Source of the DNA: a virus | Virus record (IMG/VR): IMGVR_UViG_3300010883_008292 | Location: 12,617-76,616 of that record | Length of the DNA: 64,000 nt | Strand: one strand, 5' to 3' | Shown here: one piece after another, positions 20,204 to 52,129 of the stretch | How the letters are laid out: each line of letters begins with the position of its first letter | How positions within the stretch are numbered: the first letter of the stretch is position 1 | The notes under the pieces: model-generated | What the model saw: only the letters and a program-made list of their open reading frames with translations | Databases searched by the model: none | Told to the model about the DNA's origin: nothing | Position numbers and translations under genes: made by a program

Positions 20204-20827
20204 ATGGCAAAAAGGAGAGACCCAAACTCAGCACACTACATTGACAACAAGGAAATGCTTGTCAAGATAAGTGAGTACAGAGTTAAAAGATTAGAAGCAG
20301 AAGAATGTGGCGAACCCAAACCACGAGTTACAAATTATTTAGGTGAATGTTTTGTTAAAATAGCAAACCACTTAGCGTTTAAATCAAATTTTGTAAACTA
20401 CACATTTAGAGATGAAATGATTCTAGATGGTATTGAAAATTGTCTTACATATATGGACAACTTTGATCCAGCAAAATCTAAAAATCCTTTTGCGTACTTT
20501 ACACAAATCACATACTACGCTTTCATTAGACGTATCCAAAAAGAGAAACGTCAAATGGAAACGAAATTTAAATACATTAAGAGTCTAGATATAGAACAAA
20601 TTTTAGCACATGGTTCTGATGGCGACAGTCACAACAATGAGTACCTTAGTTATATGAGAAATATCATTGAACAGGCTGAAGCAGATAATGCAAAAGCAGA
20701 CAAAGCCAATGAAGGTAAGAAAGTAGTTAAGCGTAGACCAATATATTTAGACAAGAAAATTAAAGCAAAAGAAGCAGCAGAAGCGGCAGCAGCAGCAGAA
20801 GCAGAAAAAGGACAAGTAGGTACTTGA
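20204..20827 (+). CDS. gp55: Late-transcription sigma factor
   Basis: HYIDNKE, YLGECF.KIA.HL..K.NF.NYTFRDEMI.DGIENC, NPFAYFTQI.YYAFIRRIQKEK motifs. Confidence 0.97.
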   Translation: MAKRRDPNSAHYIDNKEMLVKISEYRVKRLEAEECGEPKPRVTNYLGECFVKIANHLAFKSNFVNYTFRDEMILDGIENCLTYMDNFDPAKSKNPFAYFTQITYYAFIRRIQKEKRQMETKFKYIKSLDIEQILAHGSDGDSHNNEYLSYMRNIIEQAEADNAKADKANEGKKVVKRRPIYLDKKIKAKEAAEAAAAAEAEKGQVGT

Positions 20828-20861: not shown

Positions 20862-21740
20862 ATGAAGATAAGATATAGCGAAGTATTTTATAGCGTACAA
20901 GGTGAAGGAAGATTTGTAGGAGTTCCGAGTATATTCCTACGAGTTTTTGGTTGCAACTTTGAATGTAGAGGTTTCGGACAGGAGAGAGATAATTTAATCC
21001 CTGTCGAGGAAATGCCTTACTTTACAGATCCCAAAGCAGATAAAAACCATCCCGAAGCATACAAATCAATAACAGAATTACCTGTTACACCGGTAGGGTG
21101 TGATAGCTCTGCCAGTTGGGCTATGAAATATAAACATTTACAATTAACAGAGACATTAGAAGAAGTGTTTGATCGTATTGTTAAACTATTACCCAATGGT
21201 AGGTTTGACGAGAAGAACGATATCCATTTAGTCATTACAGGTGGTGAACCTCTACTGGGTTGGCAACGGTGTTGGCCAGCCCTTTTAGAGATGTGTAAGG
21301 AAGTAGGTTTACAGAATGTTACTTACGAAACTAATGGCACACAAGATTTACAAAAACAATTGATAGACTATTTTAATGGTGACGGTAAAGACATACATGT
21401 AACTTGGAGCACCTCACCTAAATTAAGTTTATCGGGTGAAGAAGTGTTTGATGCATTAATCCCAGAAGTATTATTGGGTATGCAAGAGGTAAGTAACAGT
21501 CATTTATATAACAAATTTGTTGTTCGAGACATAAATGATTTTGAAGAAGTAGATATATTTGTAGAAGCATACAAAGATGCTGGAGTTAAATTGGACGCAG
21601 TTTACTGTATGCCTGAAGGCGCCACGTTAGAACAACAAACATTAACAGAAAAAGATGTAGCAGAGGCTTGTATGCAGACAGGATATAAATTCAGTCCTAG
21701 GCTACACATAACATTATTTGGCAACGCATGGGGGACATAA
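20862..21740 (+). CDS. queE: 7-carboxy-7-deazaguanine synthase (radical SAM)
   Basis: YSEVFYSVQGEG.FVG.PSIFLR.FGCN..C...GCDS, VITGGEPL, ETNGT, SPKL, PRLH..LFG motifs. Confidence 0.93.
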   Translation: MKIRYSEVFYSVQGEGRFVGVPSIFLRVFGCNFECRGFGQERDNLIPVEEMPYFTDPKADKNHPEAYKSITELPVTPVGCDSSASWAMKYKHLQLTETLEEVFDRIVKLLPNGRFDEKNDIHLVITGGEPLLGWQRCWPALLEMCKEVGLQNVTYETNGTQDLQKQLIDYFNGDGKDIHVTWSTSPKLSLSGEEVFDALIPEVLLGMQEVSNSHLYNKFVVRDINDFEEVDIFVEAYKDAGVKLDAVYCMPEGATLEQQTLTEKDVAEACMQTGYKFSPRLHITLFGNAWGT

Positions 21741-21908
21741 ATGAAAAATAGATTATTAGATTGGATGGATAAAAAAGCAGGTGGGGTAACGGAGAGTGAA
21801 ATTTATCAAAGTAGATGGGTATGGTACCATACTATATTAGCTTTTGAAATATTTTTTACTAACATTCTATTACTTGCAATACTATTACTTCTCGCAATTA
21901 AATTATGA
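21741..21908 (+). CDS. Small membrane protein (55 aa; not in the ORF track)
   Basis: MKNRLLDWMDKK...WVWYHTILAFEIFFTNILLLAILLLLAIKL; coupled to both neighbours. Confidence 0.55.
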   Translation: MKNRLLDWMDKKAGGVTESEIYQSRWVWYHTILAFEIFFTNILLLAILLLLAIKL

Positions 21909-22117
21909 ACCAGAAACAGAAGCAAGCACTTAAAGAATCTCTAGTTACAGTTGGATCTGGCTTTGTTGTCAACTTTCCAATTAGTGTTGTGCTTTTATAT
22001 ATCTTTATTGATGTACTAGCATTATCAACCTTTACAGTATCAGCATTATTAACAGGCTGCTTTACTTTTATAGCCCTCATTAGAGTTTATACTATTAGAA
22101 TGTGGTTTTCAAAATGA
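21905..22117 (+). CDS. Small two-TM membrane protein
   Basis: Two hydrophobic stretches; overlapping start/stop codons with neighbours. Confidence 0.6.
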   Translation: MNQKQKQALKESLVTVGSGFVVNFPISVVLLYIFIDVLALSTFTVSALLTGCFTFIALIRVYTIRMWFSK

Positions 22118-22551
22118 TTAAAATTAAGGAAGCAGACAAACTTTATGTGGGCTGGCAGGAAATGCACCAACTGTGTATTCTTATGGCTCTAGTAATTAGC
22201 GAAAAAAAGTATAAAAGAATTGTAGGTATCAGCAGGGGCGGCCTTATTCCAGGAGTATGCCTGTCCCAATCATTAGACATTCCTTTTGAACCTTTACAAT
22301 GGCAAACTAGAGATGGTGACCTTAGGGACACACTTTCAGTAGCATTAATGGCACTAGAAGATCCAAACGATATATTATTCGTAGACGATGTATGTGATAG
22401 CGGCCAAACAATAGAACAAATTAGAGATATCTTCCCTGAGAGTCACTGGGCTGTACTTTACTCCAAAAAGGGTAACATGGCTATTGACTTTGAAGGCTGT
22501 AGGCTTTATAATAACAAACAATGGATAGTATTTCCTTGGGAGAAAAAATGA
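22114..22551 (+). CDS. Purine (xanthine/guanine-type) phosphoribosyltransferase
   Basis: GISRGGLIP, ILFVDDVCDSGQT PRPP-binding loop, WIVFPWE C-terminus. Confidence 0.88.
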   Translation: MIKIKEADKLYVGWQEMHQLCILMALVISEKKYKRIVGISRGGLIPGVCLSQSLDIPFEPLQWQTRDGDLRDTLSVALMALEDPNDILFVDDVCDSGQTIEQIRDIFPESHWAVLYSKKGNMAIDFEGCRLYNNKQWIVFPWEKK

Positions 22552-23231
22552 GTACGAGTGAGAGAATAAGAACACGGTTAGAAGTAGACGGTAAACGTTA
22601 CTACGCAGCCGATAACATATCACAATATATTAAACCCTTAGAGAAGGCAGAGTTAATAGAAGAACTTACGGAAAAGTTTGAAGGTGTTTTAGATGCTTTA
22701 ATAATAGATAGGAAGAATGATCCTAACAGTATGGACACACCTAGGCGCTTAGCTAAGATGTATATATTAGAAATAATGGGTGGTAGGTATGATGACGACC
22801 CTAGAATAACAGCATTTCCTAATGATGGAAAGTATGACCAACTGATTACTGTTAGAATGGATTTAAAAAGCATGTGTTCACATCATCACCAACCAGTGAA
22901 TGGTGTTTGTTATGTATCATGTATGCCAGGAGAAGAAGTTATTGGACTGTCTAAATATACTAGAGTGGCACAGCATTTAGCATCACGTGGACACTTACAA
23001 GAAGAGCTTTGTGAAATGATTGCAGAAAGAATTGAGAAACTTACAAAGTCTAAGGCAGTAGGCGTTTATATTAAAGCAAGACATGGGTGTTGTGAGAACA
23101 GAGGCATTAGAGCTAGTAACAGTAGCACACAGACAACGGTTCTAAAAGGAGAACTAAAGACGAACCCTTCATTAAAAGAAGAGTTTATGGACAATATAAA
23201 ATTACAGGAGATGAATGGTGGACACGCTTAG
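22548..23231 (+). CDS. folE: GTP cyclohydrolase I
   Basis: DTPRRLAKMY, SMCSHH, IGLSK..R, QEEL, HGC...RG motifs; start at the ATG at 22548. Confidence 0.95.
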   Translation: MSTSERIRTRLEVDGKRYYAADNISQYIKPLEKAELIEELTEKFEGVLDALIIDRKNDPNSMDTPRRLAKMYILEIMGGRYDDDPRITAFPNDGKYDQLITVRMDLKSMCSHHHQPVNGVCYVSCMPGEEVIGLSKYTRVAQHLASRGHLQEELCEMIAERIEKLTKSKAVGVYIKARHGCCENRGIRASNSSTQTTVLKGELKTNPSLKEEFMDNIKLQEMNGGHA

Positions 23232-23745
23232 TAGACAAATAGTATTAGATTTAGAAACACTTTCAACCAGATCTAATGCAGCCATTGTATCAATTGGTGC
23301 AGTAGCAATTGAGAATTTAGAAATAGTAGATGAATTCTATGTGAATGTAGACCCTAAAACTTGTAAAGAGGCAGGACTACACATAGATCCTTTAACAATA
23401 GAGTGGTGGGCCCAACAAGACTTGGAAGCAAGGAGTGCATTAACAGTCAATCCTGTTCCATTAGATGAAGCATTAGATAAATTTGCTACATTTTTTGGCG
23501 AAGGTAAAATATGGGGCATGGGTGCTAATTTTGATGTTGTTATAATGGAAAGCGCTATGACACTATCAGGTTGGAATACTAATAGAGATGCAAGAGATAA
23601 ATTCCCTTGGAAGTTTTGGGACATTTTTTGTTTAAGAACTTTAATGAATGTTTTAGGTAAACGTTTACCCAAAGCAAATAACCACAACGCATTAGATGAT
23701 GCAAAAGCTGAGGCAGAAATGCTAATTCAAATTTTAAAAACATGA
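23215..23745 (+). CDS. DEDDh 3'-5' exonuclease (RNase AS / DexA-like)
   Basis: LDLETL, SIGAV, TIEWW..Q, WGMGANFD, HNALDDA motifs. Confidence 0.85.
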   Translation: MVDTLSRQIVLDLETLSTRSNAAIVSIGAVAIENLEIVDEFYVNVDPKTCKEAGLHIDPLTIEWWAQQDLEARSALTVNPVPLDEALDKFATFFGEGKIWGMGANFDVVIMESAMTLSGWNTNRDARDKFPWKFWDIFCLRTLMNVLGKRLPKANNHNALDDAKAEAEMLIQILKT

Positions 23746-25010
23746 AACATACTTTAGACTATGTAGTATCAGGAACCTCATACATGCGTTTGAGTAATCC
23801 TAACATTGCTTTTGATAAAACGAATACAAGCATTGTGTCTATGCTAATAAAGAAATTAGTACAAGATCAATTCAGCCATAAGTTTTCATTACTTTATAAT
23901 GCACATACAGAACATTCTTTTGGTGATAGATTTAAACCATATCATGATGCTGCACATAGCATACATGCAGACTCAGGTGGACTTCAAATTATCACTCAAG
24001 GAATGACAATTACAGATGAATTAAAAGAAAAAGTATATAGGAACCAGGCTAAAGGAGCTGATGTTGGCATGTGTTTTGATGAGATACCTGTTATACTTAC
24101 AGGGGAACGCTCAGATAGGAACGATGTTAAACAAAGGTTCTTTGACCACGAAAATTATGAGGAGTTAGCTAGAAAGACTGGACGCAATGTTAAAAAACAG
24201 TTAGAAATTTTTGAAGAAGAAGGTAGTAGCTGTGAACCATATATTATTCTACAAGGTAACGATGTAGATACTTATTTAAGATGGTATGAATGTTTAATGG
24301 AGGAGATACCTAGTGAATGGCATAGCAGGATCGGTGGTGTGGCAATGGGAGCAGCTGCTCTCGGAACAGGACCATTAGAAGATGTAAAAAGAGCCTTCAT
24401 AGCATCAGAAATAGCGAAGACATGGCCACGAGATAAGATGCACTTACATATATTAGGCGTAGGTTCTATAAGACGTATAGTTCCTTACCTAGTCTTTTGT
24501 CAGAACGGTTTGTATGACAATGTAGAGATATCATATGACTCTACTACACACAGCAGGGCGGTTGAGACAGGGTTATTCTACATGGGACAAGGCACAACTA
24601 AGTTTAATAGACAGATGTCTAATTTGTATCGCGAAATGTATCAAAACTGTATGAAAACGATCGATTTGGGAGTAGATTTAGACGAATTTCATCACTTATT
24701 AAACACCCCGAGTATGAAAGCTAAAGATGAATACGGCAATTTAAATACATGGTTGTATGTTAGAACAGCTTTTATACTAATGTCTATTAGAAACTTTATG
24801 CAACACTTAGAACAGATGTTGTTAGATAAGGACGCCCTTTTAAAGTTTACGAAGAAGATGAAACTTGATGGACAGTTTAGGAACCTATATAATGTAAAAA
24901 ATAAAGATGATTATATAGCGTGGGAATCAAATCAATATTTAGGTGGGTCAATGAAGTCAATGGCAGTAGCCAGAGAGATGCCTGCTAGCCTGGAGGAATT
25001 ATTTGGATGA
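23742..25010 (+). CDS. dpdA: TGT-fold DNA deazaguanine transglycosylase (DpdA-like)
   Basis: ADSGGLQ, CFDEIP, ILQG, GGVAMG, HLHILGVG, SYDST motifs of the TGT barrel; no C-terminal Zn site of tRNA TGT seen; lies within the queE/folE/queD cluster. Confidence 0.82.
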   Translation: MKHTLDYVVSGTSYMRLSNPNIAFDKTNTSIVSMLIKKLVQDQFSHKFSLLYNAHTEHSFGDRFKPYHDAAHSIHADSGGLQIITQGMTITDELKEKVYRNQAKGADVGMCFDEIPVILTGERSDRNDVKQRFFDHENYEELARKTGRNVKKQLEIFEEEGSSCEPYIILQGNDVDTYLRWYECLMEEIPSEWHSRIGGVAMGAAALGTGPLEDVKRAFIASEIAKTWPRDKMHLHILGVGSIRRIVPYLVFCQNGLYDNVEISYDSTTHSRAVETGLFYMGQGTTKFNRQMSNLYREMYQNCMKTIDLGVDLDEFHHLLNTPSMKAKDEYGNLNTWLYVRTAFILMSIRNFMQHLEQMLLDKDALLKFTKKMKLDGQFRNLYNVKNKDDYIAWESNQYLGGSMKSMAVAREMPASLEELFG

Positions 25011-25360
25011 AAAAGTTTATTAAAGTTAGTTTCCAGAAAGAAGGTATACACAAATACCCTGGAGCAAAAGATCTACCAGGTGTAGAGTTTTTACAGTATC
25101 CACACAGACATATCTTTCACTTCTATGTTACGTTAGAAGTTATGCACGACAATAGAGAAGTAGAATTCATCTTATTTAAAAGAGAGTTAGAGGAACAGTA
25201 TGCAACAGGAATCCTCGAACTAGACTACCAGTCATGTGAAATGATGGCTGAAAGTCTTATAAATTATATAGAAGTACATTATCCTAATCGAGCAATACAA
25301 GTAGAAGTGTATGAGGATAATGAAAACGGGGCAATAGTACAGAATGATTTATTTAATTGA
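25007..25360 (+). CDS. dpdL: QueD-paralogous T-fold protein, DpdL-like (putative CDG decarboxylase)
   Basis: LQYPHRHIF = LxxxHRHxF in place of QueD CxxxHGH; SCEMMAE and V.VYED.ENG C-terminal T-fold motifs. Confidence 0.7.
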   Translation: MKKFIKVSFQKEGIHKYPGAKDLPGVEFLQYPHRHIFHFYVTLEVMHDNREVEFILFKRELEEQYATGILELDYQSCEMMAESLINYIEVHYPNRAIQVEVYEDNENGAIVQNDLFN

Positions 25361-26411
25361 TCTAGAGTATGTCGAAACAAGATATACTGCACAGTGGAAA
25401 ACAGAATTTCCACAGTCAATAGCGGACAAGACAGGACAAGACATTACAGTTATTGAAGGCCCTATCATAGAGTCTGATGTTTCTTCAGGATCATTTTTAG
25501 ATTTTGCCGCCACTAACATATACAAGTCAGAACAAACAAAAATATTAGCACAGTTCTTTGCAGAAGGTAAAATAAAAGATGGAGATCATTTTGTATTTGC
25601 TGATGCCTGGCACCCAGGTGTTTTAAATTTAAAATATATGGTAAGCCTATTGGGGTATGATGTTACAATACATGGCCTCTGGCATGCAGGAAGTTATGAT
25701 ACAAATGATTTCTTAGGTAGAGATATAGGACCTGTACCTTGGGTAAGGTATACAGAGTTAGCAATGTTCGATGCGTTTGATAAAAATTATTTCGCTAGCC
25801 AATTCCATATAGGTATGTTTGCTAGTGTTATGGCACCCGATCCTAGTCAACAAGAATATTTACAGAGTAAAATGGTTAGGACAGGCTGGCCAATGGAATA
25901 TTTAGGACCCACTCTTGACAGAGATACTATAGGTGTAGAGAAACAAAACTTAATATTATTCCCACACAGAAACGCACCAGAAAAACAGTTAGAAATATTT
26001 AAAGACTTAGAAGCTCAACTACCTGAGTATGATTTTATTAACTGTGCAGAGTTTGATCTAAAGAAACCAGACTATCACTTGTTATTAGGGCAAGCAAAGA
26101 TGGTGTTCAGTGCAAACTTGCAAGAGACATTAGGCATATCTTGTTACGAAATTATGAGGACAGGAGGTGTACCTTTTGTACCAAACAGACTTTCATATAT
26201 GGAAATGTATGATGATGTGTTCAAATACCCTTCAATCTGGACAGAGAGTTGGGAAAACTATCAAAACAATCAAGAGAATTTAAAAAATAGAATTAGATAT
26301 TTAATGGAGAACCAGAACAATAATGATATTCGTGGTGCATTAAATACTAATAAAGAAAAACTTGAGAAGCATTATTTCTCAGCAGAAAACTTATATCAGG
26401 AGTTAAGATGA
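25344..26411 (+). CDS. GT-B (GT4-like) glycosyltransferase
   Basis: FPHR.APEKQ, FSANLQETLGISCYE, PFVPNRLSY.EM (E-x7-E GT-B motif). Confidence 0.8.
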   Translation: MIYLIDLEYVETRYTAQWKTEFPQSIADKTGQDITVIEGPIIESDVSSGSFLDFAATNIYKSEQTKILAQFFAEGKIKDGDHFVFADAWHPGVLNLKYMVSLLGYDVTIHGLWHAGSYDTNDFLGRDIGPVPWVRYTELAMFDAFDKNYFASQFHIGMFASVMAPDPSQQEYLQSKMVRTGWPMEYLGPTLDRDTIGVEKQNLILFPHRNAPEKQLEIFKDLEAQLPEYDFINCAEFDLKKPDYHLLLGQAKMVFSANLQETLGISCYEIMRTGGVPFVPNRLSYMEMYDDVFKYPSIWTESWENYQNNQENLKNRIRYLMENQNNNDIRGALNTNKEKLEKHYFSAENLYQELR

Positions 26412-26878
26412 ACGGACAAGATCCATATATGGACTACAATTATTTTTCAACAAAAACATATGGACATGAACAAGGATTGTCAGCAGTCTTTAGACAACCA
26501 GGTGCAGTAAGTCATTGCAATTTACTACATGGCTACGCATTATCTTTTATGTTTAAGTTTGGCTGTGAACATTTAGATGATAAAGATTGGGTAATAGATT
26601 TTGGAGGACTAGGAGAGCTAAAAGAATGGTTAAAAGAAAACTTTGATCACAAACTTGTTGTATCCAAATCAGATCCACAGATAGATAAGTTTTTAGGCTT
26701 AGAAGAACTAGGTTTAGCTGAGGTAGTAGTAATGAATGGTGTTGGTTGTGAGAAGTTTGCAGAACATGCATTTCATTTTGCTAATGACTTGGTAAATAAT
26801 ATGACAGGCGGGCGATGCTATTGCGTTGCTTGTGAAGTAAAGGAACATGGGGCCAATTCAGCGATATACGAGGGCTAA
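26408..26878 (+). CDS. queD: 6-carboxy-5,6,7,8-tetrahydropterin synthase
   Basis: HCNLLHGY, WVIDFGGL..LK.WL...FDH, GCEKFAE, V.EH.ANSA motifs. Confidence 0.92.
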   Translation: MNGQDPYMDYNYFSTKTYGHEQGLSAVFRQPGAVSHCNLLHGYALSFMFKFGCEHLDDKDWVIDFGGLGELKEWLKENFDHKLVVSKSDPQIDKFLGLEELGLAEVVVMNGVGCEKFAEHAFHFANDLVNNMTGGRCYCVACEVKEHGANSAIYEG

Positions 26879-40061: not shown

Positions 40062-40718
40062 ATGAAAATAAGCACAGGCACTCTTGATATCCTCAAGAAC
40101 TTTGCAACAATTAATACGAACATTCTCGTTCGTGAAGGGAACACATTATCCACAATAAGCACAGGCAAAAATATATTTGCTAGGGCAGAGCTTGGTGATA
40201 GTTTTCCAAAAGAATTTGCAATCTATGATTTAAATAGTTTGCTTTCACTACTAACCCTAATGGAAGATACTGATGTTGACTTTCAAGACGAAAGTTTAAA
40301 AGTTAGTAAAGGTACATCTGTTTTTGAATACTTCTATGCAGACCCTAACATAATAGTTAGTGCACCTGATAAGAGTATTGAAGTAGATAACTTCTTCCAG
40401 TTTGACTTTACAAAAGACGATATTGATATGATATTAAAAGCAGCAGCTATTACAGCAGCTCCTATGTTAAGCATCGTTGGTAAAGATAAGGAAGTAGTAG
40501 TAACAGTTAGTGATCCTAGCACACCTAAGTCTAACAGCTTTAGGCAAGTAATAGGCACAACTGATAAAGAATTTGATGCTAGACTAGCAATAGAAAACTT
40601 TAAGGTAGTACCTGGAAGTTATAGCGTTACACTTTCAACTAAGAAATTTATGTTCTTAGAAAGCAGTAATGGCGAATTAAAATATTGGTTAGCATTAGAA
40701 CGTTCATCTCAAATATAG
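40062..40718 (+). CDS. gp45: Sliding clamp
   Basis: MKIS..TL.ILKNFATIN.NI, FAIYDLN.LL, Y.YADP, YWLALE motifs. Confidence 0.96.
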   Translation: MKISTGTLDILKNFATINTNILVREGNTLSTISTGKNIFARAELGDSFPKEFAIYDLNSLLSLLTLMEDTDVDFQDESLKVSKGTSVFEYFYADPNIIVSAPDKSIEVDNFFQFDFTKDDIDMILKAAAITAAPMLSIVGKDKEVVVTVSDPSTPKSNSFRQVIGTTDKEFDARLAIENFKVVPGSYSVTLSTKKFMFLESSNGELKYWLALERSSQI

Positions 40719-41577: not shown

Positions 41578-42516
41578 ATGAAACCAGAACAATTTTTATG
41601 GGTTGAAAAATACCGTCCACATAATATACAAGACTGTATATTGCCCGATGATGTAAAAACAACTTTTCAGCAGTTTATTGCTAAAAAGGAAATCCCTAAC
41701 TTACTATTAAGTGGTTCAGCAGGAACCGGTAAAACAACCCTAGCGCGTGCATTGTGCGAAGAACTTGGTTGTGACTATATAGTTATTAATGGTAGTGATG
41801 AGGGTAGGCAGATAGATACCTTAAGAACTAAGATCCGAGGATTTGCATCAGCAGTATCTTTTGAGGGTAAGACTAAGGTAGTTATACTCGACGAGGCTGA
41901 CTATTTGAACAGAGAAAGTGTTCAACCAGCACTACGGGCGTTCATAGAGAACTTTTCGTCGAATTGTAGGTTTATCTTTACTTGTAACTATATAAATAGA
42001 CTTATTACACCGTTGCACAGTAGAACGACTGTAGTGGACTTCAAAATAACCCCTGCAGACCGCCCTCAGCTCGCTGCTAAGTTCCTTCAAAGGATGCAGT
42101 ATATCCTTACTAATGAAGGAGTTGAGTACTCTGAGAAAGTGTTAGCGGAGCTCTTAATGAAGTATTTTCCTGATTATCGTAGGGTCATAAATGAACTACA
42201 AAGGTACTCAGTAGCAGGAAAAATAGATGAGGGTGTACTAAGTAACTTCCAGGAAATCAACGCTAAGCAGCTCATAGAGAGCCTTAGGGACAAAGATTGG
42301 AAGAAGATGAGACAGTGGGTAGCCAATAATGTGGATACTGACCCTCAGGGTATATTTAGACAGATATACGATACACTAATACCCGAAGTTAAGTTTGTTT
42401 CACAGCTAGTAGTCTTAATTGCCGAATATCAGTATAAAGCGGCCTTTGTAGCAGATCAAGAAATTAACCTAACTGCGTGTTTGACAGAAATCATGGCAAA
42501 TGTGGATTTTGAATGA
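41578..42516 (+). CDS. gp44: Clamp loader large subunit
   Basis: FLWVEKYRP, GSAGTGKTT, ILDEAD, PLHSR, YFPDYRR motifs. Confidence 0.97.
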   Translation: MKPEQFLWVEKYRPHNIQDCILPDDVKTTFQQFIAKKEIPNLLLSGSAGTGKTTLARALCEELGCDYIVINGSDEGRQIDTLRTKIRGFASAVSFEGKTKVVILDEADYLNRESVQPALRAFIENFSSNCRFIFTCNYINRLITPLHSRTTVVDFKITPADRPQLAAKFLQRMQYILTNEGVEYSEKVLAELLMKYFPDYRRVINELQRYSVAGKIDEGVLSNFQEINAKQLIESLRDKDWKKMRQWVANNVDTDPQGIFRQIYDTLIPEVKFVSQLVVLIAEYQYKAAFVADQEINLTACLTEIMANVDFE

Positions 42517-48681: not shown

Positions 48682-51177
48682 ATGAATTTTTATACTTATG
48701 CGCGTCATTACGGCGACAAAATCCTGGTCCGTGGAGTGAAGAACGGAGAACGTTTTACCTCACGACACGACTTCAGACCTACCCTATTTGTCAAATCAGA
48801 CAAACCCTCAGAATACAAAAGCATTTTTGGAGAGAAAGTATCTCCTATACAGTTTGATTCTAACAAAGAAGCAACTGACTTTTTTAGTAGATATAAAGAC
48901 ATTCCTAACTTTCCAGTATTTGGGCAAAACTACTATGCCTACCAATACATAACAGAAAAGTATCCTGGAACAATTGAATGGGATGCTAAAAAATTAGCCA
49001 TTTACTCTATTGACATTGAAACAACGTCAGATGGTGGCTTTCCTAACGTAGACTCTCCGAGTGAGAAAGTTCTAGTTATCACACTTCAAAACAACAACAC
49101 CAAGAAGATAACAACTTTTGGCCTCGGAGAGTTTACACCTAAGGACGATACAAAACATTTAGATATAGATTATCATAATTGTACAGACGAATATGCTCTT
49201 CTTAAAACCTTTTTAGACTGGTGGGAGTCTAATACTCCAGACGTTATTACGGGCTGGAACTCTAACTTATTTGATATACCCTACTTACTTGCTAGAACAG
49301 AAAAAATATTAGGCGAGAACGAACATAAAAAATATTCTCCCTTTGGCATAGTACAGAAAAGAAACGTTAGATTCATGGGACAAGAAAAGACAGCATTTGA
49401 AATAGTAGGTGTTGCACAATTAGATTATTTAGACTTATATAAGAAGTTTACTTATGTTACTCGTGAATCCTATAAACTAGACTTTATTGCAGAAACAGAG
49501 CTAGGTAAAAATAAACTTGATAGTGGCTTTGAAACATTTAAAGAGCATTATGAGAAGGATTGGAATGGATTTGTAGAGTATAATATTATTGATACAGTTC
49601 TTGTTGATGAGTTAGAAGATAAAATGAAACTTATTGAACTGGCCATTACAATGGCATACGATGCTAAATGTAATTATAATGATGTATATTCTGCGGTTAG
49701 AACGTGGGATAGTTTATTATATAATCACTTATGGGAAAAGAAAATTGTCTTACACCAAGGTGGTGGCAGGAAAGATAGAACAATAGAAGGAGCATATGTA
49801 CAGGAACCAGTACCCGGTAATTATGATTGGGTTGCTAGTTTCGATGCCACAAGTCTATATCCTTCTATTATTATGCAGTACAATATGAGTCCGGAAACTA
49901 TTATTCCTGATTTTAAATATGATGTGAAAGTAGATGACTTGATAGATAGGTATAAGTTAGACAAGTTAAAAGAAAAGAATTATGCTATGGCAGCTAATGG
50001 AACTTGTTATTCGAGGGAAAAGCAAGGCCTGTTTCCTGAGATAGTACAAAAGTTTTTTAATGATAGATTAAAATATAAAAGACTTATGCAAGAGTCACAA
50101 AAGAAGTTCCAGGAAACTGGTGCCAAAGTTTATGAAAATGAAGTTAGCAAATATAATAACTTCCAAATGGCAAGAAAAATTCAATTGAACAGTTTATATG
50201 GCGCCTTGGCAAACCAATACTTTAGATTCTATGATGATAGACTTGCTGAAGGTATTACAATGACCGGCCAGTTAGTAATTAGAGACACGGCAAAGGCATT
50301 AGACAAATATATTAATAAGGTCTGTGGTACGGAAGATCAACAATATTCGTTTTATAGCGATACTGACTCCTGCTATGTTACTTTGGACAATATGGTTAAA
50401 AACTTTTTCCCTGATAAAAGCAAAGATCAGGTAGTAGGTTTAATAGATACGATTGCATCTGAGAAAATAGAACCAGCAATAGATCAGGCAATGCAAAAGT
50501 TGGCTAACTATACTAATGCTTTTGAAAAGAAAATAGACTTTAAAAGGGAGATTATAGCAGATAAAGGTATATTTGTAGCTAAGAAGCGATATGCTTTAAA
50601 TGTATATGATGACGAAGGATTGAGACTTAAAGAACCCAAGTTAAAGGTAATGGGATTAGAGATAGTCAGATCAAGCACTCCTGGCGTAATTAGAGAGTCT
50701 CTAAGGGAGGCCGTACGTCTTATACTTACTAGCGATGAAGAAACATTACACTCCTACGTAGCAGACGCCAAAGAGGACTTCCTCAGCAAAACAGCTGAAG
50801 TAATAGCATTTCCTAGAGGCTGTAACAATATGAAGAAGTATAGAAGTACCGCAGACATATATGGCAAAGGAACTCCTATTCACGTTAGGGGTGGATTGCT
50901 ATATAATCATTATTTGAAGGAACATAATTTAAATTTAAAGTATGAGAAAATCCAGGAAGGAGATAAGATTAAGTTCTTATATTTAAAAGAGCCTAATCCT
51001 ATAAAAGAAAATACGATAGCATTTATTACCAAACTTCCAAAAGAATTCAATTTACAGAAATATGTAGATTACGAACTAATTTTCCAAAAGGCATTTGTGG
51101 ATCCTTTAGAAAATATATTGAATCCACTGGGCTGGCATACCGAACCCCAAGCTTCCTTAGAGGACTTATTTACATGA
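48682..51177 (+). CDS. gp43: Family B DNA polymerase
   Basis: SIDIET, TGWN..LFDIPY, SFDATSLYP, KIQLNSLYG, YSDTDS motifs; C-terminal SLEDLF clamp peptide. Confidence 0.98.
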   Translation: MNFYTYARHYGDKILVRGVKNGERFTSRHDFRPTLFVKSDKPSEYKSIFGEKVSPIQFDSNKEATDFFSRYKDIPNFPVFGQNYYAYQYITEKYPGTIEWDAKKLAIYSIDIETTSDGGFPNVDSPSEKVLVITLQNNNTKKITTFGLGEFTPKDDTKHLDIDYHNCTDEYALLKTFLDWWESNTPDVITGWNSNLFDIPYLLARTEKILGENEHKKYSPFGIVQKRNVRFMGQEKTAFEIVGVAQLDYLDLYKKFTYVTRESYKLDFIAETELGKNKLDSGFETFKEHYEKDWNGFVEYNIIDTVLVDELEDKMKLIELAITMAYDAKCNYNDVYSAVRTWDSLLYNHLWEKKIVLHQGGGRKDRTIEGAYVQEPVPGNYDWVASFDATSLYPSIIMQYNMSPETIIPDFKYDVKVDDLIDRYKLDKLKEKNYAMAANGTCYSREKQGLFPEIVQKFFNDRLKYKRLMQESQKKFQETGAKVYENEVSKYNNFQMARKIQLNSLYGALANQYFRFYDDRLAEGITMTGQLVIRDTAKALDKYINKVCGTEDQQYSFYSDTDSCYVTLDNMVKNFFPDKSKDQVVGLIDTIASEKIEPAIDQAMQKLANYTNAFEKKIDFKREIIADKGIFVAKKRYALNVYDDEGLRLKEPKLKVMGLEIVRSSTPGVIRESLREAVRLILTSDEETLHSYVADAKEDFLSKTAEVIAFPRGCNNMKKYRSTADIYGKGTPIHVRGGLLYNHYLKEHNLNLKYEKIQEGDKIKFLYLKEPNPIKENTIAFITKLPKEFNLQKYVDYELIFQKAFVDPLENILNPLGWHTEPQASLEDLFT

Positions 51178-52016
51178 TAGAATATGACAAAGAACTAGTA
51201 CACAATGCGTTGGGTAGACCATATTGGATATATGCAGACGACACATTTTATCAACAAAGAATTGCAGGTGCAGGACCATACCAACAGAAGAATTTAAAAT
51301 ACATTAGAGCATTGGTTCCTAATGCCAGAACAATAATTGATGTTGGTATGAATATAGGAATGAATACTATTGAATATGCCACTTGGGCTGATGAAGTAAA
51401 ATCATTTGAACCTGTTAAACAAACATATGATATGGCAAAACTTAATATAGAATTAGCTAAAGAACAAAAAGAGTTCTTAAAAACATGGTGGCCTAATTCA
51501 TCACTACTACAAATAGCAGATATAGAAGCTCATAATTGTGGTTTAGGTGATAAACCAGGATCCTTTGAAATACAGATTAAAAGAAATAATGCAGGATCAA
51601 ATCATTTAAAAAGAACCCATACAAAAAGAGGTCCTGTTGGAGCAACTACAAAACCAAGCGTAGACGAAATACAAACAGTTCTGATAAACACATTGGATTC
51701 TTATGGATACAAAGATGTAGATGTAATTAAAGTAGATGCTGAGGGTTATGAATACCCTGTAGTTATGGGTGCAGAAGAAACTATAATGAGAGATAAACCG
51801 GTTGTTCAATTAGAAATGATTGCAGGACAGCCAGAAAGATTTGGATACACATTACAAATGATACAGGATTGGTTCCTTGAAAGAGACTTTATTATTACAT
51901 TACCAGATGGTACTGAAGTTGATGACGAGTTTACCTATTATAAGAAGAATGTAGAGAGATTTTTTATACATAAAAGTAAGTATGAGAAAAGAACATTAGA
52001 GGATTTATTTACATGA
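51174..52016 (+). CDS. FkbM-family methyltransferase
   Basis: IIDVGMNIG, SFEP, NCGLG, TLDS, VIKVDAEGYE..V..GA...I....P...LE motifs. Confidence 0.9.
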   Translation: MIEYDKELVHNALGRPYWIYADDTFYQQRIAGAGPYQQKNLKYIRALVPNARTIIDVGMNIGMNTIEYATWADEVKSFEPVKQTYDMAKLNIELAKEQKEFLKTWWPNSSLLQIADIEAHNCGLGDKPGSFEIQIKRNNAGSNHLKRTHTKRGPVGATTKPSVDEIQTVLINTLDSYGYKDVDVIKVDAEGYEYPVVMGAEETIMRDKPVVQLEMIAGQPERFGYTLQMIQDWFLERDFIITLPDGTEVDDEFTYYKKNVERFFIHKSKYEKRTLEDLFT

Positions 52017-52129
52017 TATCAGGTTGGATACTTTTTGCAGCACTAATATTTGTCAATACTGCTGTATATGTAATGATACAGATGTATTTTGAAGGGCACC
52101 CAGCATTTACAGACGGGGATCATATATGA
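52013..52129 (+). CDS. 38-aa membrane peptide (not in the ORF track)
   Basis: MISGWILFAALIFVNTAVYVMIQMYFEGHPAFTDGDHI; ATGA overlaps at both ends. Confidence 0.5.
   Translation: MISGWILFAALIFVNTAVYVMIQMYFEGHPAFTDGDHI

What the first reader, a model, noticed from the sequence alone, without database searches (positions are those of the whole stretch)
24981..25010. DpdA ends in a sliding-clamp-binding-type peptide matching that of the DNA polymerase
Seen: the DpdA-like protein ends ...PASLEELFG* and gp43 in this genome ends ...QASLEDLFT*. Established: T4/RB69 gp43, gp55 and gp33 dock on the gp45 clamp through a C-terminal (S/T)LDxLF-type peptide. Inference: the base-exchange enzyme is tethered to gp45 and modifies nascent DNA behind the fork, which would also explain how it selects phage over host DNA. 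I am not aware of clamp-coupled DpdA having been described.
Basis: partly seen in the sequence, partly recalled or inferred. Interest (0 to 1): 0.85.

Follow-up and report, generated by a model that had tools for sequence, protein, structure and literature searches.

The report
Clamp-docking tail on phage DpdA
In this marine T4-like phage, the enzyme that swaps guanine in DNA for a 7-deazaguanine ends in the same short peptide that its DNA polymerase uses to hold the sliding clamp, so DNA modification is probably physically hooked to replication; binding is predicted, not measured.

Summary
ORF 23742-25010 (422 aa) has a TGT fold and is homologous to DpdA2. It ends in SLEELFG*. The phage's family-B polymerase (48682-51177) ends in SLEDLFT*, and T4 gp43 ends in SLDFLFG*.

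The tail is not chance:
- 189 of 256 full-length homologues keep an [S/T]L[E/D]x[L/F]F end behind a variable, low-confidence linker. Identity goes down to about 30%.
- Among 450 background ORFs, only the polymerases, the DpdAs and one methyltransferase match.
- Codon usage shows selection on the protein, not on DNA or a ribosome-binding site.
- Tail variants (LF or FF) match between DpdA and polymerase within genomes.
- All ten complete genomes checked encode gp45.

A gp45 + tail model passed its controls (0.71 against 0.00), but similar complexes are already solved.

The same tail also ends an FkbM methyltransferase here (51174-52016). There it was probably copied from the polymerase 3' end. 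It also ends a glycosyltransferase next to DpdA in two other lineages. The KVP40/nt-1 DpdA2 enzymes and the DpdA3 candidates checked lack it.

No paper in the held library links DpdA to a clamp. This scan has already noted the same pattern on many other genomes. Binding and its consequences remain untested.

The parts
23742..25010 (+). DpdA2-like DNA guanine transglycosylase gene (422 aa), with a TGT-fold core in residues 1-374
   Evidence: No Pfam or NCBIfam hit. phrog_10773 at E 1.7e-92. tblastn gives 31-34% identity to 'queuine tRNA-ribosyltransferase'/DpdA2 of KVP40-group, Stenotrophomonas and Xanthomonas phages. AlphaFold2 model pLDDT 92. TGT fold by Foldseek at E 1e-8 and by VIA at Z 20.2, rmsd 4.1 A over 306 residues.
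24930..24986 (+). Flexible, sequence-variable linker (about residues 397-415) between the core and the tail
   Evidence: Block pLDDT falls to 69 and 57 at the C-terminus. These alignment columns vary in sequence and length, with insertions of up to about 25 aa in some homologues.
24987..25007 (+). C-terminal peptide SLEELFG, the candidate gp45-binding epitope
   Evidence: L417 and F421 are invariant. The family consensus is [S/T]-L-[E/D]-x-[L/F]-F. In the complex model, residues 412-418 and 420-422 contact gp45.
40062..40718 (+). gp45 sliding clamp, the proposed docking partner
   Evidence: Pfam DNA_PPF and phrog_223. The predicted interface residues are 32, 35-39, 102-107, 176, 179, 194-196 and 209-215. 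Most of them are invariant or nearly so in the gp45 alignment A2.
41578..42516 (+). gp44 clamp-loader large subunit, which loads gp45 on phage DNA
   Evidence: Pfam AAA and Gp44_lid.
48682..51177 (+). Family-B DNA polymerase (gp43); its tail SLEDLFT is encoded at 51154-51174
   Evidence: Pfam DNA_pol_B and DNA_pol_B_exo1. Tail read. T4 gp43 ends in SLDFLFG.
51174..52016 (+). FkbM-family methyltransferase that ends in TLEDLFT (51993-52013)
   Evidence: Pfam Methyltransf_21 and TIGR01444. A direct repeat of about 23 nt at 51157-51179 and 51996-52018 flanks the gene. The tail is kept in nine close relatives, all placed directly after the polymerase.
25007..25360 (+). DpdL-like T-fold protein (proposed CDG decarboxylase), translationally coupled to dpdA
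   Evidence: phrog_17812. 52% identical to the ACP17 homologue and 38% to phiST DpdL. It carries the LxxxHRHxF motif described in PMC10516641.
20862..23231 (+). Precursor genes of the same module: queE-like (20862-21740), PRTase (22102-22551) and folE (22521-23231)
   Evidence: NCBIfam QueE N-terminal hits and an XPRT hit. Pfam GTP_cyclohydroI.
26408..26878 (+). queD (PTPS)
   Evidence: Pfam PTPS at E 8e-12.

Best explanation
ORF 23742-25010 encodes a DpdA2-like DNA transglycosylase. It exchanges guanine in double-stranded DNA for a 7-deazaguanine base made by the neighbouring folE-queD-queE-dpdL genes. The base is probably 7-deazaguanine or CDG, because no queC is present in the contig.

A disordered linker of about 20 residues is followed by SLEELFG, a gp45-binding epitope of the same type as the one on the phage's own polymerase. 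This tail docks in the hydrophobic pocket of the clamp, at the interdomain loop and C-terminus on the C face. The enzyme is thereby concentrated on DNA that carries phage-loaded clamps, that is, on replicating phage DNA.

Shown here: the sequence, its conservation, the match with the polymerase tail, the fold, and the presence of the partner gene. Modelled only: the docking. Inferred: modification coupled to replication, and selectivity for phage over host DNA.
For: (1) The tail is identical in type to the cognate polymerase tail and to T4 gp43 and gp55. In T4 these hydrophobic-acidic C-termini are the gp45-binding epitopes. They are interchangeable and sit behind a divergent flexible linker (PMC2988020). 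The LDFLF motif binds the gp45 pocket (PMC6212786).

(2) Conservation. L417 and F421 are invariant while the linker varies. Nearly all of the 120 closest homologues keep the tail, as do 101 of 141 representatives of 50%-identity clusters. The strict pattern hits 189 of 256 homologues against 5 of 450 background ORFs, and all five are the polymerases, DpdAs and the FkbM protein.

(3) Selection acts on the protein. Five Leu codons are used, Ser comes from both the AGT and the TCN codon families, and 13 of 38 distinct tail DNAs are not overlapped by a downstream gene.

(4) DpdA and polymerase tails match within genomes:
- LF with LF in the window clade and in ACP17, X1 and Ps15.
- FF with FF in BUCT-ZZ01, G030 and G033.
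- Both tails deviant in G031.
On the polymerase tree the two LF clades are separate, each starred (ultrafast bootstrap/SH-aLRT at least 95/80).

(5) All ten complete or near-complete genomes with a tailed DpdA encode gp45.

(6) Whole-genome scans find the tail only on the polymerase and on modification enzymes. In G016 these are the polymerase and DpdA. In G030 and BUCT-ZZ01 they are the polymerase, DpdA and a glycosyltransferase next to DpdA. In this contig they are the polymerase, DpdA and the FkbM methyltransferase.

(7) Complex model of gp45 with DpdA residues 381-422:
- ipSAE 0.71 (three runs: 0.70, 0.73, 0.71); the best of three controls scored 0.00.
- That mark was reached by 58 of 80 solved complexes and by 2 of 110 mismatched pairs.
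- The runs agree in at least 70% of contacts. Partner pLDDT is at least 46.
- L417, L420 and F421 contact gp45 residues 32-39, 102-107, 194-196 and 209-215.
- Similar complexes are solved (gp45 with polymerase and ligase peptides), so this pass shows likeness and may come from memory.

(8) Consistent with published assays (PMC10516641). The tail-less VH7D and nt-1 DpdA2 enzymes work when expressed alone in E. coli. ACP17 dpdA, which has a tail, gave no product there when expressed with dpdL.
Against: - No binding measurement exists, and the model may reflect memory of solved gp45-peptide complexes.
- The tail is not universal. KVP40-group DpdA2 has a T4-type clamp and a polymerase tail (TLESFFG) but no DpdA tail. 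pf16 DpdA ends in TLDLMCA while its polymerase ends in SLEDFFS.
- The LF/FF match rests on only about two independent switches, so shared ancestry could explain part of it.
- gp55 of this phage lacks the epitope, so the T4 set of clamp clients does not transfer wholesale.
- The T4 precedent for a clamp-bound modification enzyme (alpha-glucosyltransferase) has been contradicted (bioRxiv 10.64898/2025.12.06.692756).
- In the window itself the LEE codons also form a GGAGGA Shine-Dalgarno sequence for the next gene.
Confidence: 0.75

Rival explanations
1. The tail does bind gp45, but not to couple base exchange to the fork. It might instead park the enzyme on clamps left behind at nicks or Okazaki junctions, compete with the polymerase to time or slow synthesis, or recruit the enzyme late in infection.
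For: The evidence for a clamp epitope is the same as for the main reading. T4 clamps serve several clients, including ligase and the late-transcription factors. Nothing computed here separates clamps at the fork from clamps left behind it.
Against: Nothing specific argues against it. This is a variant of the main reading. It is less economical for explaining why only modification enzymes and the polymerase carry the tail.
Confidence: 0.12
2. The tail binds a different partner, such as the host beta clamp (whose motif, QL[SD]LF, looks loosely similar) or another phage replisome protein. Alternatively it mediates self-association.
For: The motif is short and hydrophobic-acidic. The resemblance to the beta-clamp motif rests on my own recall and was not tested here. 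No binding data exist.
Against: - The identical peptide ends the cognate polymerase, whose T4 homologue uses it for gp45.
- Every complete genome with a tailed DpdA encodes gp45.
- The control that replaced gp45 with an unrelated protein scored 0.00.
- Hosts range from cyanobacteria to Xanthomonas, yet the tail follows the phage polymerase, not the host.
Confidence: 0.07
3. The shared ending has no function in the protein. It would be a by-product of DNA-level constraints (a ribosome-binding site plus an overlapping ATGA for the next gene) or of cassette insertion that copied the polymerase 3' end.
For: In the window all three tails contain GAGGA 8-10 nt before an overlapping ATG. The FkbM gene is flanked by a repeat of about 23 nt that includes the polymerase tail codons.
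Against: - For DpdA, the peptide persists with many synonymous codons and where no gene overlaps.
- It persists in isolates with gaps of 35-71 nt before the next gene.
- It persists down to about 30% identity.
- The dpdA gene lies 24 kb from the polymerase gene.
This rival may still explain how the FkbM tail arose, but not the DpdA tail.
Confidence: 0.03
4. The enzyme is a tRNA-guanine transglycosylase acting on tRNA, and the tail has nothing to do with DNA.
For: The closest solved folds are tRNA TGTs. The activity was not assayed.
Against: - The protein is homologous to DpdA2 enzymes that are shown to insert preQ0 or preQ1 into DNA (PMC10516641).
- There is no Pfam TGT hit.
- It sits in a queC-less module with a dpdL-like gene, as in phages with dDG in their DNA.
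- A peptide that docks on a DNA clamp makes no sense for a tRNA enzyme.
Confidence: 0.03

Closest known systems
C-terminal gp45-binding epitopes of T4 gp43, gp55 and gp33 (PMC2988020)
   Same: Both are short hydrophobic-acidic peptides at the extreme C-terminus, behind a divergent flexible linker. The sequence is SL(D/E)xLF: T4 gp43 has SLDFLFG, gp55 has SLDFLY..., and this DpdA has SLEELFG. A cognate gp45 is encoded. The modelled contacts lie at the clamp's interdomain loop and C-terminal face.
   Different: The client is a DNA base-exchange enzyme, not a polymerase or a transcription factor. In this phage gp55 lacks the epitope. Binding has not been measured.
T4 DNA ligase internal LDFLF loop bound to gp45 (PMC6212786)
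   Same: It is a non-polymerase DNA enzyme recruited to gp45 by the same motif type. The measured Kd is about 10.7 uM, and the peptide sits in the hydrophobic pocket.
   Different: The ligase motif is internal and helical. Here the motif is terminal, like the one on the polymerase.
DpdA2 of Vibrio phages nt-1, VH7D and KVP40 (PMC6884629, PMC10516641)
   Same: It is a homologous transglycosylase (31-33% identity over 80% of the length, E about 1e-45). It occurs in T4-like myoviruses and is encoded beside folE and the que genes.
   Different: The KVP40-group proteins end differently (...FPAFKEQE) and have no polymerase-type tail. They work alone in E. coli and modify under about 0.1-0.4% of bases. 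The window enzyme belongs to a tailed clade linked to DpdL and lacking QueC.
Bacterial DpdA-DpdB (PMC10164549)
   Same: It is a TGT-fold DNA transglycosylase with three invariant active-site Asp residues. It needs an accessory factor to act on DNA.
   Different: The accessory factor is the DpdB ATPase, not a sliding clamp. There is no C-terminal clamp peptide. Sequence similarity is too low for a profile hit against PDB sequences.
T4 alpha-glucosyltransferase-gp45 interaction (reported in vitro in 2004, cited)
   Same: It proposes the same idea: a phage DNA-modification enzyme riding the clamp so that DNA is modified as it is replicated.
   Different: T4 a-gt has no polymerase-type tail. A 2025 preprint did not reproduce the interaction in vitro or in vivo.
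Eukaryotic PCNA clients DNMT1 and UNG2 with PIP boxes (from my own knowledge, not checked here)
   Same: A DNA methyltransferase and a DNA glycosylase are recruited to the replication clamp by a short peptide, which couples base modification or excision to the fork.
   Different: The clamp, motif (QxxLxxFF) and enzymes are different. The relation is analogy, not homology.

Membership tests
TGT/DpdA superfamily, DpdA2-like clade | TGT-type (beta/alpha)8 barrel fold | tested here: met
   The model has pLDDT 92 and pTM 0.90. Foldseek matches Z. mobilis TGT at E 1e-8. VIA gives Z 20.2, rmsd 4.1 A over 306 aligned residues, covering model residues 1-374.
TGT/DpdA superfamily, DpdA2-like clade | Sequence homology to experimentally tested DpdA2 (the nt-1/VH7D/KVP40 group) | tested here: met
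   tblastn gives 31-33% identity over residues 5-341, E 2e-46 to 7e-45, to VH7D, KVP40 and relatives.
TGT/DpdA superfamily, DpdA2-like clade | Three invariant active-site aspartates (general acid/base, base-binding, nucleophile; PMC10164549) | tested here: inconclusive
   D77 (in HADSGG), D113 (in FDEIP) and D266 (in YDSTTH) are invariant in alignment A1, and they occur in the expected order. No residue-level superposition on DpdA (7UI4) or TGT was made.
TGT/DpdA superfamily, DpdA2-like clade | Genomic linkage to 7-deazaguanine precursor genes | tested here: met
   queE-like, folE, dpdL-like and queD genes lie within 20862-26878. The same linkage is seen in BUCT-ZZ01, X1, ACP17 and Ps15.
TGT/DpdA superfamily, DpdA2-like clade | Guanine/7-deazaguanine exchange in DNA | not testable with these tools
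   This needs an enzyme assay or LC-MS/MS of phage DNA.
gp45 (T4-type sliding clamp) C-terminal binding epitope | A hydrophobic-acidic peptide at the extreme C-terminus that matches the cognate polymerase tail | tested here: met
   DpdA ends in SLEELFG*, the polymerase in SLEDLFT*, and T4 gp43 in SLDFLFG*.
gp45 (T4-type sliding clamp) C-terminal binding epitope | A divergent, flexible linker before the epitope | tested here: met
   pLDDT is low at the C-terminus and the alignment columns are variable with insertions and deletions. gp55 is described the same way in PMC2988020.
gp45 (T4-type sliding clamp) C-terminal binding epitope | Evolutionary conservation of the epitope and co-occurrence with gp45 | tested here: met
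   189 of 256 homologues carry the tail. gp45 is present in all 10 complete genomes checked. Tail variants match between DpdA and polymerase.
gp45 (T4-type sliding clamp) C-terminal binding epitope | Physical binding in the hydrophobic pocket of gp45 | tested here: inconclusive
   Only a model exists. ipSAE is 0.71 against a best control of 0.00; this mark was reached by 58 of 80 solved complexes and 2 of 110 mismatched pairs. Runs agree in at least 70% of contacts and partner pLDDT is at least 46. Similar complexes are solved, so the pass may come from memory. No measurement has been made.
gp45 (T4-type sliding clamp) C-terminal binding epitope | Enzyme activity on DNA depends on the tail or the clamp | not testable with these tools
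   This needs tail-deletion genetics or a reconstituted assay.

The most novel reading that the evidence does not exclude
Polymerase-type clamp tails are a general device of T4-like phages. With them, DNA-hypermodification enzymes (DpdA, glycosyltransferases, possibly an FkbM methyltransferase) ride gp45, so that newly replicated phage DNA is modified efficiently and selectively while host DNA is not. If so, these enzymes need the phage clamp and clamp loader. That would explain why tailed DpdAs such as ACP17's gave no product in E. coli.
Probability: 0.45. Interest if true: 0.85.

Novelty: new variant of a known kind. Interest (0 to 1): 0.72.

Why it matters
Phage 7-deazaguanine modifications are thought to be made after replication by base exchange. 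It is not known how a transglycosylase reaches a large share of the guanines in time, or how it tells phage DNA from host DNA.

A clamp-docking tail gives a concrete mechanism that can be tested. It marks a large clade of DpdA2-like enzymes: 485 cluster representatives have E of 0.001 or better, and most of those examined carry the tail.

It predicts that heterologous assays need gp45 and its loader.

It extends the set of gp45 clients from replication and transcription factors to DNA-modification enzymes. Glycosyltransferases in two lineages are included. This reopens, on independent grounds, the disputed idea that phage DNA modification is tied to the replisome.

Tried and rejected
- A profile search of DpdA alignment A1 against PDB sequences found nothing relevant. 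The fold search was needed instead.
- Pfam and NCBIfam gave no hit for the DpdA.
- Extension to DpdA3 failed:
  - The phiST candidate gp042 has no such tail, and phiST uses a Pol III-type polymerase.
  - The CP220 polymerase ends in TLEEW, and no other CP220 ORF shares that ending.
  - Neither profile A1 nor phiST gp042 found a DpdA3 in CP220.
- gp55 of this phage was checked for the epitope and lacks it.
- The idea that the tail is only a ribosome-binding-site or overlap constraint was tested by codon usage and gene spacing, and was rejected for DpdA.
- The FkbM tail was examined:
  - In this lineage it was probably copied from the polymerase 3' end.
  - Only the nearest relatives keep it, so I do not count it as independent evidence.
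- The LF/FF match was placed on a polymerase tree. It amounts to only about two independent switches, so it is weak on its own.
- One related-loci run failed and was repeated.
Full report
**Observation.** Bases 24981-25010 encode PASLEELFG followed by a stop. They end a 422-aa ORF at 23742-25010. The window is part of a 76.6-kb viral contig from a T4-like marine phage. It encodes a gp45 clamp (40062-40718), a gp44 clamp loader (41578-42516), a family-B polymerase (48682-51177), gp55, gp46/47 and a helicase. The polymerase ends in QASLEDLFT*.

**What the protein is.** Pfam and NCBIfam find nothing, and a profile search against PDB sequences finds nothing relevant. Three other lines identify it.
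- It matches phrog_10773.
- By tblastn it is 31-34% identical to proteins annotated as queuine tRNA-ribosyltransferase in T4-like phages of Vibrio (the KVP40/VH7D group), Stenotrophomonas, Xanthomonas, Acidovorax and Pseudomonas. It is 42% identical to one in Synechococcus phage BUCT-ZZ01.
- The Vibrio proteins are the DpdA2 family, shown to insert preQ0 or preQ1 into DNA (PMC6884629, PMC10516641).

An AlphaFold2 model (pLDDT 92) has a TGT barrel. Foldseek gives E 1e-8. VIA gives Z 20.2 and rmsd 4.1 A over 306 residues, spanning residues 1-374. D77, D113 and D266 are invariant. This parallels the three invariant Asp residues of DpdA and TGT (PMC10164549), but I made no residue-level superposition.

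The gene lies in one run with queE-like, PRTase, folE, a DEDD exonuclease, a DpdL-like T-fold gene, a glycosyltransferase and queD. The DpdL-like gene is 52% identical to the ACP17 homologue and 38% to phiST DpdL. No queC occurs in the contig.

**Is the tail more than chance?**
- In the contig only three real genes end with L-[D/E]-x-L-F one residue before the stop: DpdA, the polymerase and an FkbM methyltransferase.
- In a 99%-complete relative (G016, 170 kb, about 80% amino-acid identity and syntenic) only DpdA and the polymerase do so, out of 364 ORFs.
- Nearly all of the 120 closest database homologues end in [S/T]L[E/D]x[L/F/M]F with zero to two further residues.
- In a 24-sequence alignment that goes down to 43% identity, L417 and F421 are invariant, while the preceding roughly 20 residues vary in sequence and length.
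- Of 141 full-length representatives of 50%-identity clusters, 101 match a loose pattern, and most of the rest are near variants.
- A strict pattern hits 189 of 256 homologues against 5 of 450 background ORFs. Those five are the polymerases, the DpdAs and the FkbM protein.
- The model puts the tail after a low-confidence linker, as a short helix at residues 417-421.

**Protein-level or DNA-level constraint?** In the window the LEE codons (CTGGAGGAA) also form a GGAGGA Shine-Dalgarno sequence 8 nt before the overlapping start of the next gene. That raised a rival explanation, so I checked 38 distinct tail DNAs.
- Leucine uses five codons.
- Serine comes from both the AGT and the TCN codon families.
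- Thirteen of the 38 have no overlapping downstream gene.
- The isolates BUCT-ZZ01, X1 and Ps15 keep the tail with gaps of 35-71 nt before the next gene.

So selection acts on the peptide.

**Link to the clamp.** T4 gp43 ends in SLDFLFG* and gp55 in SLDFLYEAND*, read from the T4 record. The literature establishes four points:
- The hydrophobic-acidic C-termini of gp43, gp55 and gp33 are the gp45-binding epitopes.
- They are interchangeable.
- In gp55 the epitope follows a divergent flexible linker (PMC2988020).
- An LDFLF loop of T4 ligase binds the gp45 pocket with a Kd of about 10.7 uM (PMC6212786).

The DpdA tail has the same anatomy.

DpdA and polymerase tails agree within genomes:

| Genome(s) | DpdA tail | Polymerase tail |
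|---|---|---|
| Window clade (polymerases read on 12 related contigs) | LF type (MF in the nearest subclade) | LF type |
| ACP17 | TLDELFE | SLDDLFE |
| X1 | SLEELFG | SLESLFG |
| Ps15 | SLDDLFG | SLEDLFGW |
| BUCT-ZZ01 | SLDSFFD | TLDDFFS |
| G030 | DLEDFF* | SLDDFF* |
| G033 | TLENFFE | SLEDFFG |
| G031 (both deviant) | SLELEF* | VLLDFG* |

There are two exceptions. pf16 has TLDLMCA against SLEDFFS. KVP40 DpdA2 has no tail, although its polymerase ends in TLESFFG.

On a polymerase tree the LF state sits in two separate clades, each starred (ultrafast bootstrap/SH-aLRT at least 95/80). That implies only about two independent matched switches, which is supportive but weak. All ten complete or near-complete genomes with a tailed DpdA encode a gp45 homologue.

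**Complex model.** gp45 (alignment A2) was modelled with DpdA residues 381-422 (alignment A1).
- ipSAE was 0.71 (runs 0.70, 0.73 and 0.71). The best of three controls scored 0.00.
- That mark was reached by 58 of 80 solved complexes and by 2 of 110 mismatched pairs.
- The runs agree in at least 70% of contacts, and the partner's pLDDT is at least 46.
- Only residues 412-418 and 420-422 touch gp45. L417, L420 and F421 lie against gp45 residues 32-39, 102-107 (the interdomain region), 176/179, 194-196 and 209-215 (the C-terminal face).
- Most of these gp45 positions are invariant or nearly so in A2.

Complexes of gp45 with polymerase and ligase peptides are solved. The pass therefore shows likeness and may reflect memory. 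It is not a binding measurement.

**Other enzymes with the tail.**
- The FkbM methyltransferase directly after the polymerase (51174-52016) ends in TLEDLFT*. A repeat of about 23 nt (51157-51179 and 51996-52018) flanks the gene, so its tail was probably copied from the polymerase 3' end when the gene was inserted. Nine close relatives keep the gene in this position, ending in TLE[D/N]LF. G016 lacks the gene. Among more distant FkbM homologues the polymerase-type tail is absent, but many end in ...LFEE-like peptides.
- More telling are whole-genome scans of two further lineages. They find the tail on the polymerase and on a GT4-type glycosyltransferase directly upstream of dpdA, and separate reads show that DpdA carries it too. 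In BUCT-ZZ01 the 447-aa glycosyltransferase ends in GSLEDFFND*. In G030 the 455-aa one ends in DNLDAFFG* (G030's DpdA, DLEDFF*, was read; the scan pattern misses it). The two are 43% identical, and the alignment stops about 20 residues before the tail.

So in four lineages the tail marks the polymerase and DNA-modification-module enzymes, and no other plausible gene (the G030 scan also flagged one 100-aa ORF that is probably spurious). gp55 of this phage lacks it.

**Limits of the pattern.** DpdA3 does not follow it in the two cases checked. The phiST candidate has no tail, and phiST uses a Pol III-type polymerase. In CP220 no ORF shares the polymerase's TLEEW ending.

**Mechanism.** The best-supported reading has three parts. 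DpdA is tethered through a flexible linker to phage-loaded gp45. This concentrates it on replicating phage DNA. There it exchanges guanine for the 7-deazaguanine made by the module, probably DG or CDG given the DpdL-like gene and the absence of queC. The tether is supported computationally. Coupling to the fork and discrimination of phage from host DNA are inference.

Published assays fit this reading. Tail-less VH7D and nt-1 DpdA2 work alone in E. coli, whereas ACP17 dpdA with dpdL gave no product there (PMC10516641). That failure has other possible causes.

**Novelty.** The two DpdA family papers do not mention a clamp. Full-text searches for DpdA or deazaguanine together with clamp found no paper that links them. 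The nearest precedent is T4 alpha-glucosyltransferase with gp45. T4 a-gt lacks such a tail, and the interaction is disputed by a 2025 preprint. This scan's own notes record the same pattern on many other genomes. They agree with my reading but are not independent evidence.

I class the finding as a new variant of a known kind: a known clamp-binding epitope on a new class of client.

Noticed in passing
window 51157-51179 and 51996-52018: A direct repeat of about 23 nt (TTAGAGGAYTTATTTACATGATA) flanks the FkbM methyltransferase gene. It contains the last polymerase codons, the stop and an overlapping ATG. The FkbM tail TLEDLFT was therefore probably copied from the polymerase 3' end when the gene was inserted.
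   Followed up: partly
L001:1665-3008 (BUCT-ZZ01, record 68503-69846) and L305:4514-5881 minus strand (G030): A GT4-type glycosyltransferase directly upstream of dpdA ends in a polymerase-type FF tail in two lineages (GSLEDFFND* and DNLDAFFG*). The two proteins are 43% identical. The window's own glycosyltransferase (25344-26411) belongs to a different family and has no tail.
   Followed up: partly
P0243-P0359 and L228-L260 (FkbM homologues): Many distant phage FkbM-family methyltransferases that are not next to a polymerase end in ...LFEE-like hydrophobic-acidic peptides (for example NNLFEEV, PDLFEVEE, TFSELFSEE). Others stop right after the conserved RFF/RFW motif. This may be another clamp-type tail. 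It was not tested.
   Followed up: no
window 20204-20827: gp55 (late sigma factor, phrog_234) has no SLDFL-type clamp epitope. It ends in an Ala/Glu/Lys-rich stretch. Clamp-activated late transcription as in T4 may therefore not apply in this lineage.
   Followed up: partly
window 25007-25360 and the whole contig: A DpdL-like T-fold gene with the LxxxHRHxF motif overlaps the dpdA stop codon. No queC is found in the 76.6-kb contig. The module thus resembles those of phages with 7-deazaguanine (dDG) in their DNA. A GT-B glycosyltransferase lies inside the module.
   Followed up: partly
window 24990-25010: The tail codons CTGGAGGAA (LEE) also form a GGAGGA Shine-Dalgarno sequence 8 nt before the overlapping ATG of the next gene. 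The polymerase and FkbM tails show the same GAGGA...ATGA arrangement.
   Followed up: yes
L221, L227, L242 (IMG/VR relatives): In some close relatives the polymerase ends in TLEDLFVGGPIS*, six residues beyond the usual end. The polymerase-FkbM junction therefore varies between strains.
   Followed up: no
L202/L203 (G033, 213 kb): The polymerase match is split into two pieces about 1.2 kb apart, with two in-frame TGA codons in the first piece. Possible causes are an intein or intron, a split gene, or recoding.
   Followed up: no
L120/L201 (G031, 216 kb): Both DpdA (SLELEF*) and the polymerase (VLLDFG*) have deviant tails in the same genome.
   Followed up: no
L002:2992-4371 (KVP40) and L006:1495-2817 (pf16): KVP40-group DpdA2 has no polymerase-type tail, although the phage has a T4-type clamp and its polymerase ends in TLESFFG. 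pf16 DpdA ends in TLDLMCA while its polymerase ends in SLEDFFS.
   Followed up: partly
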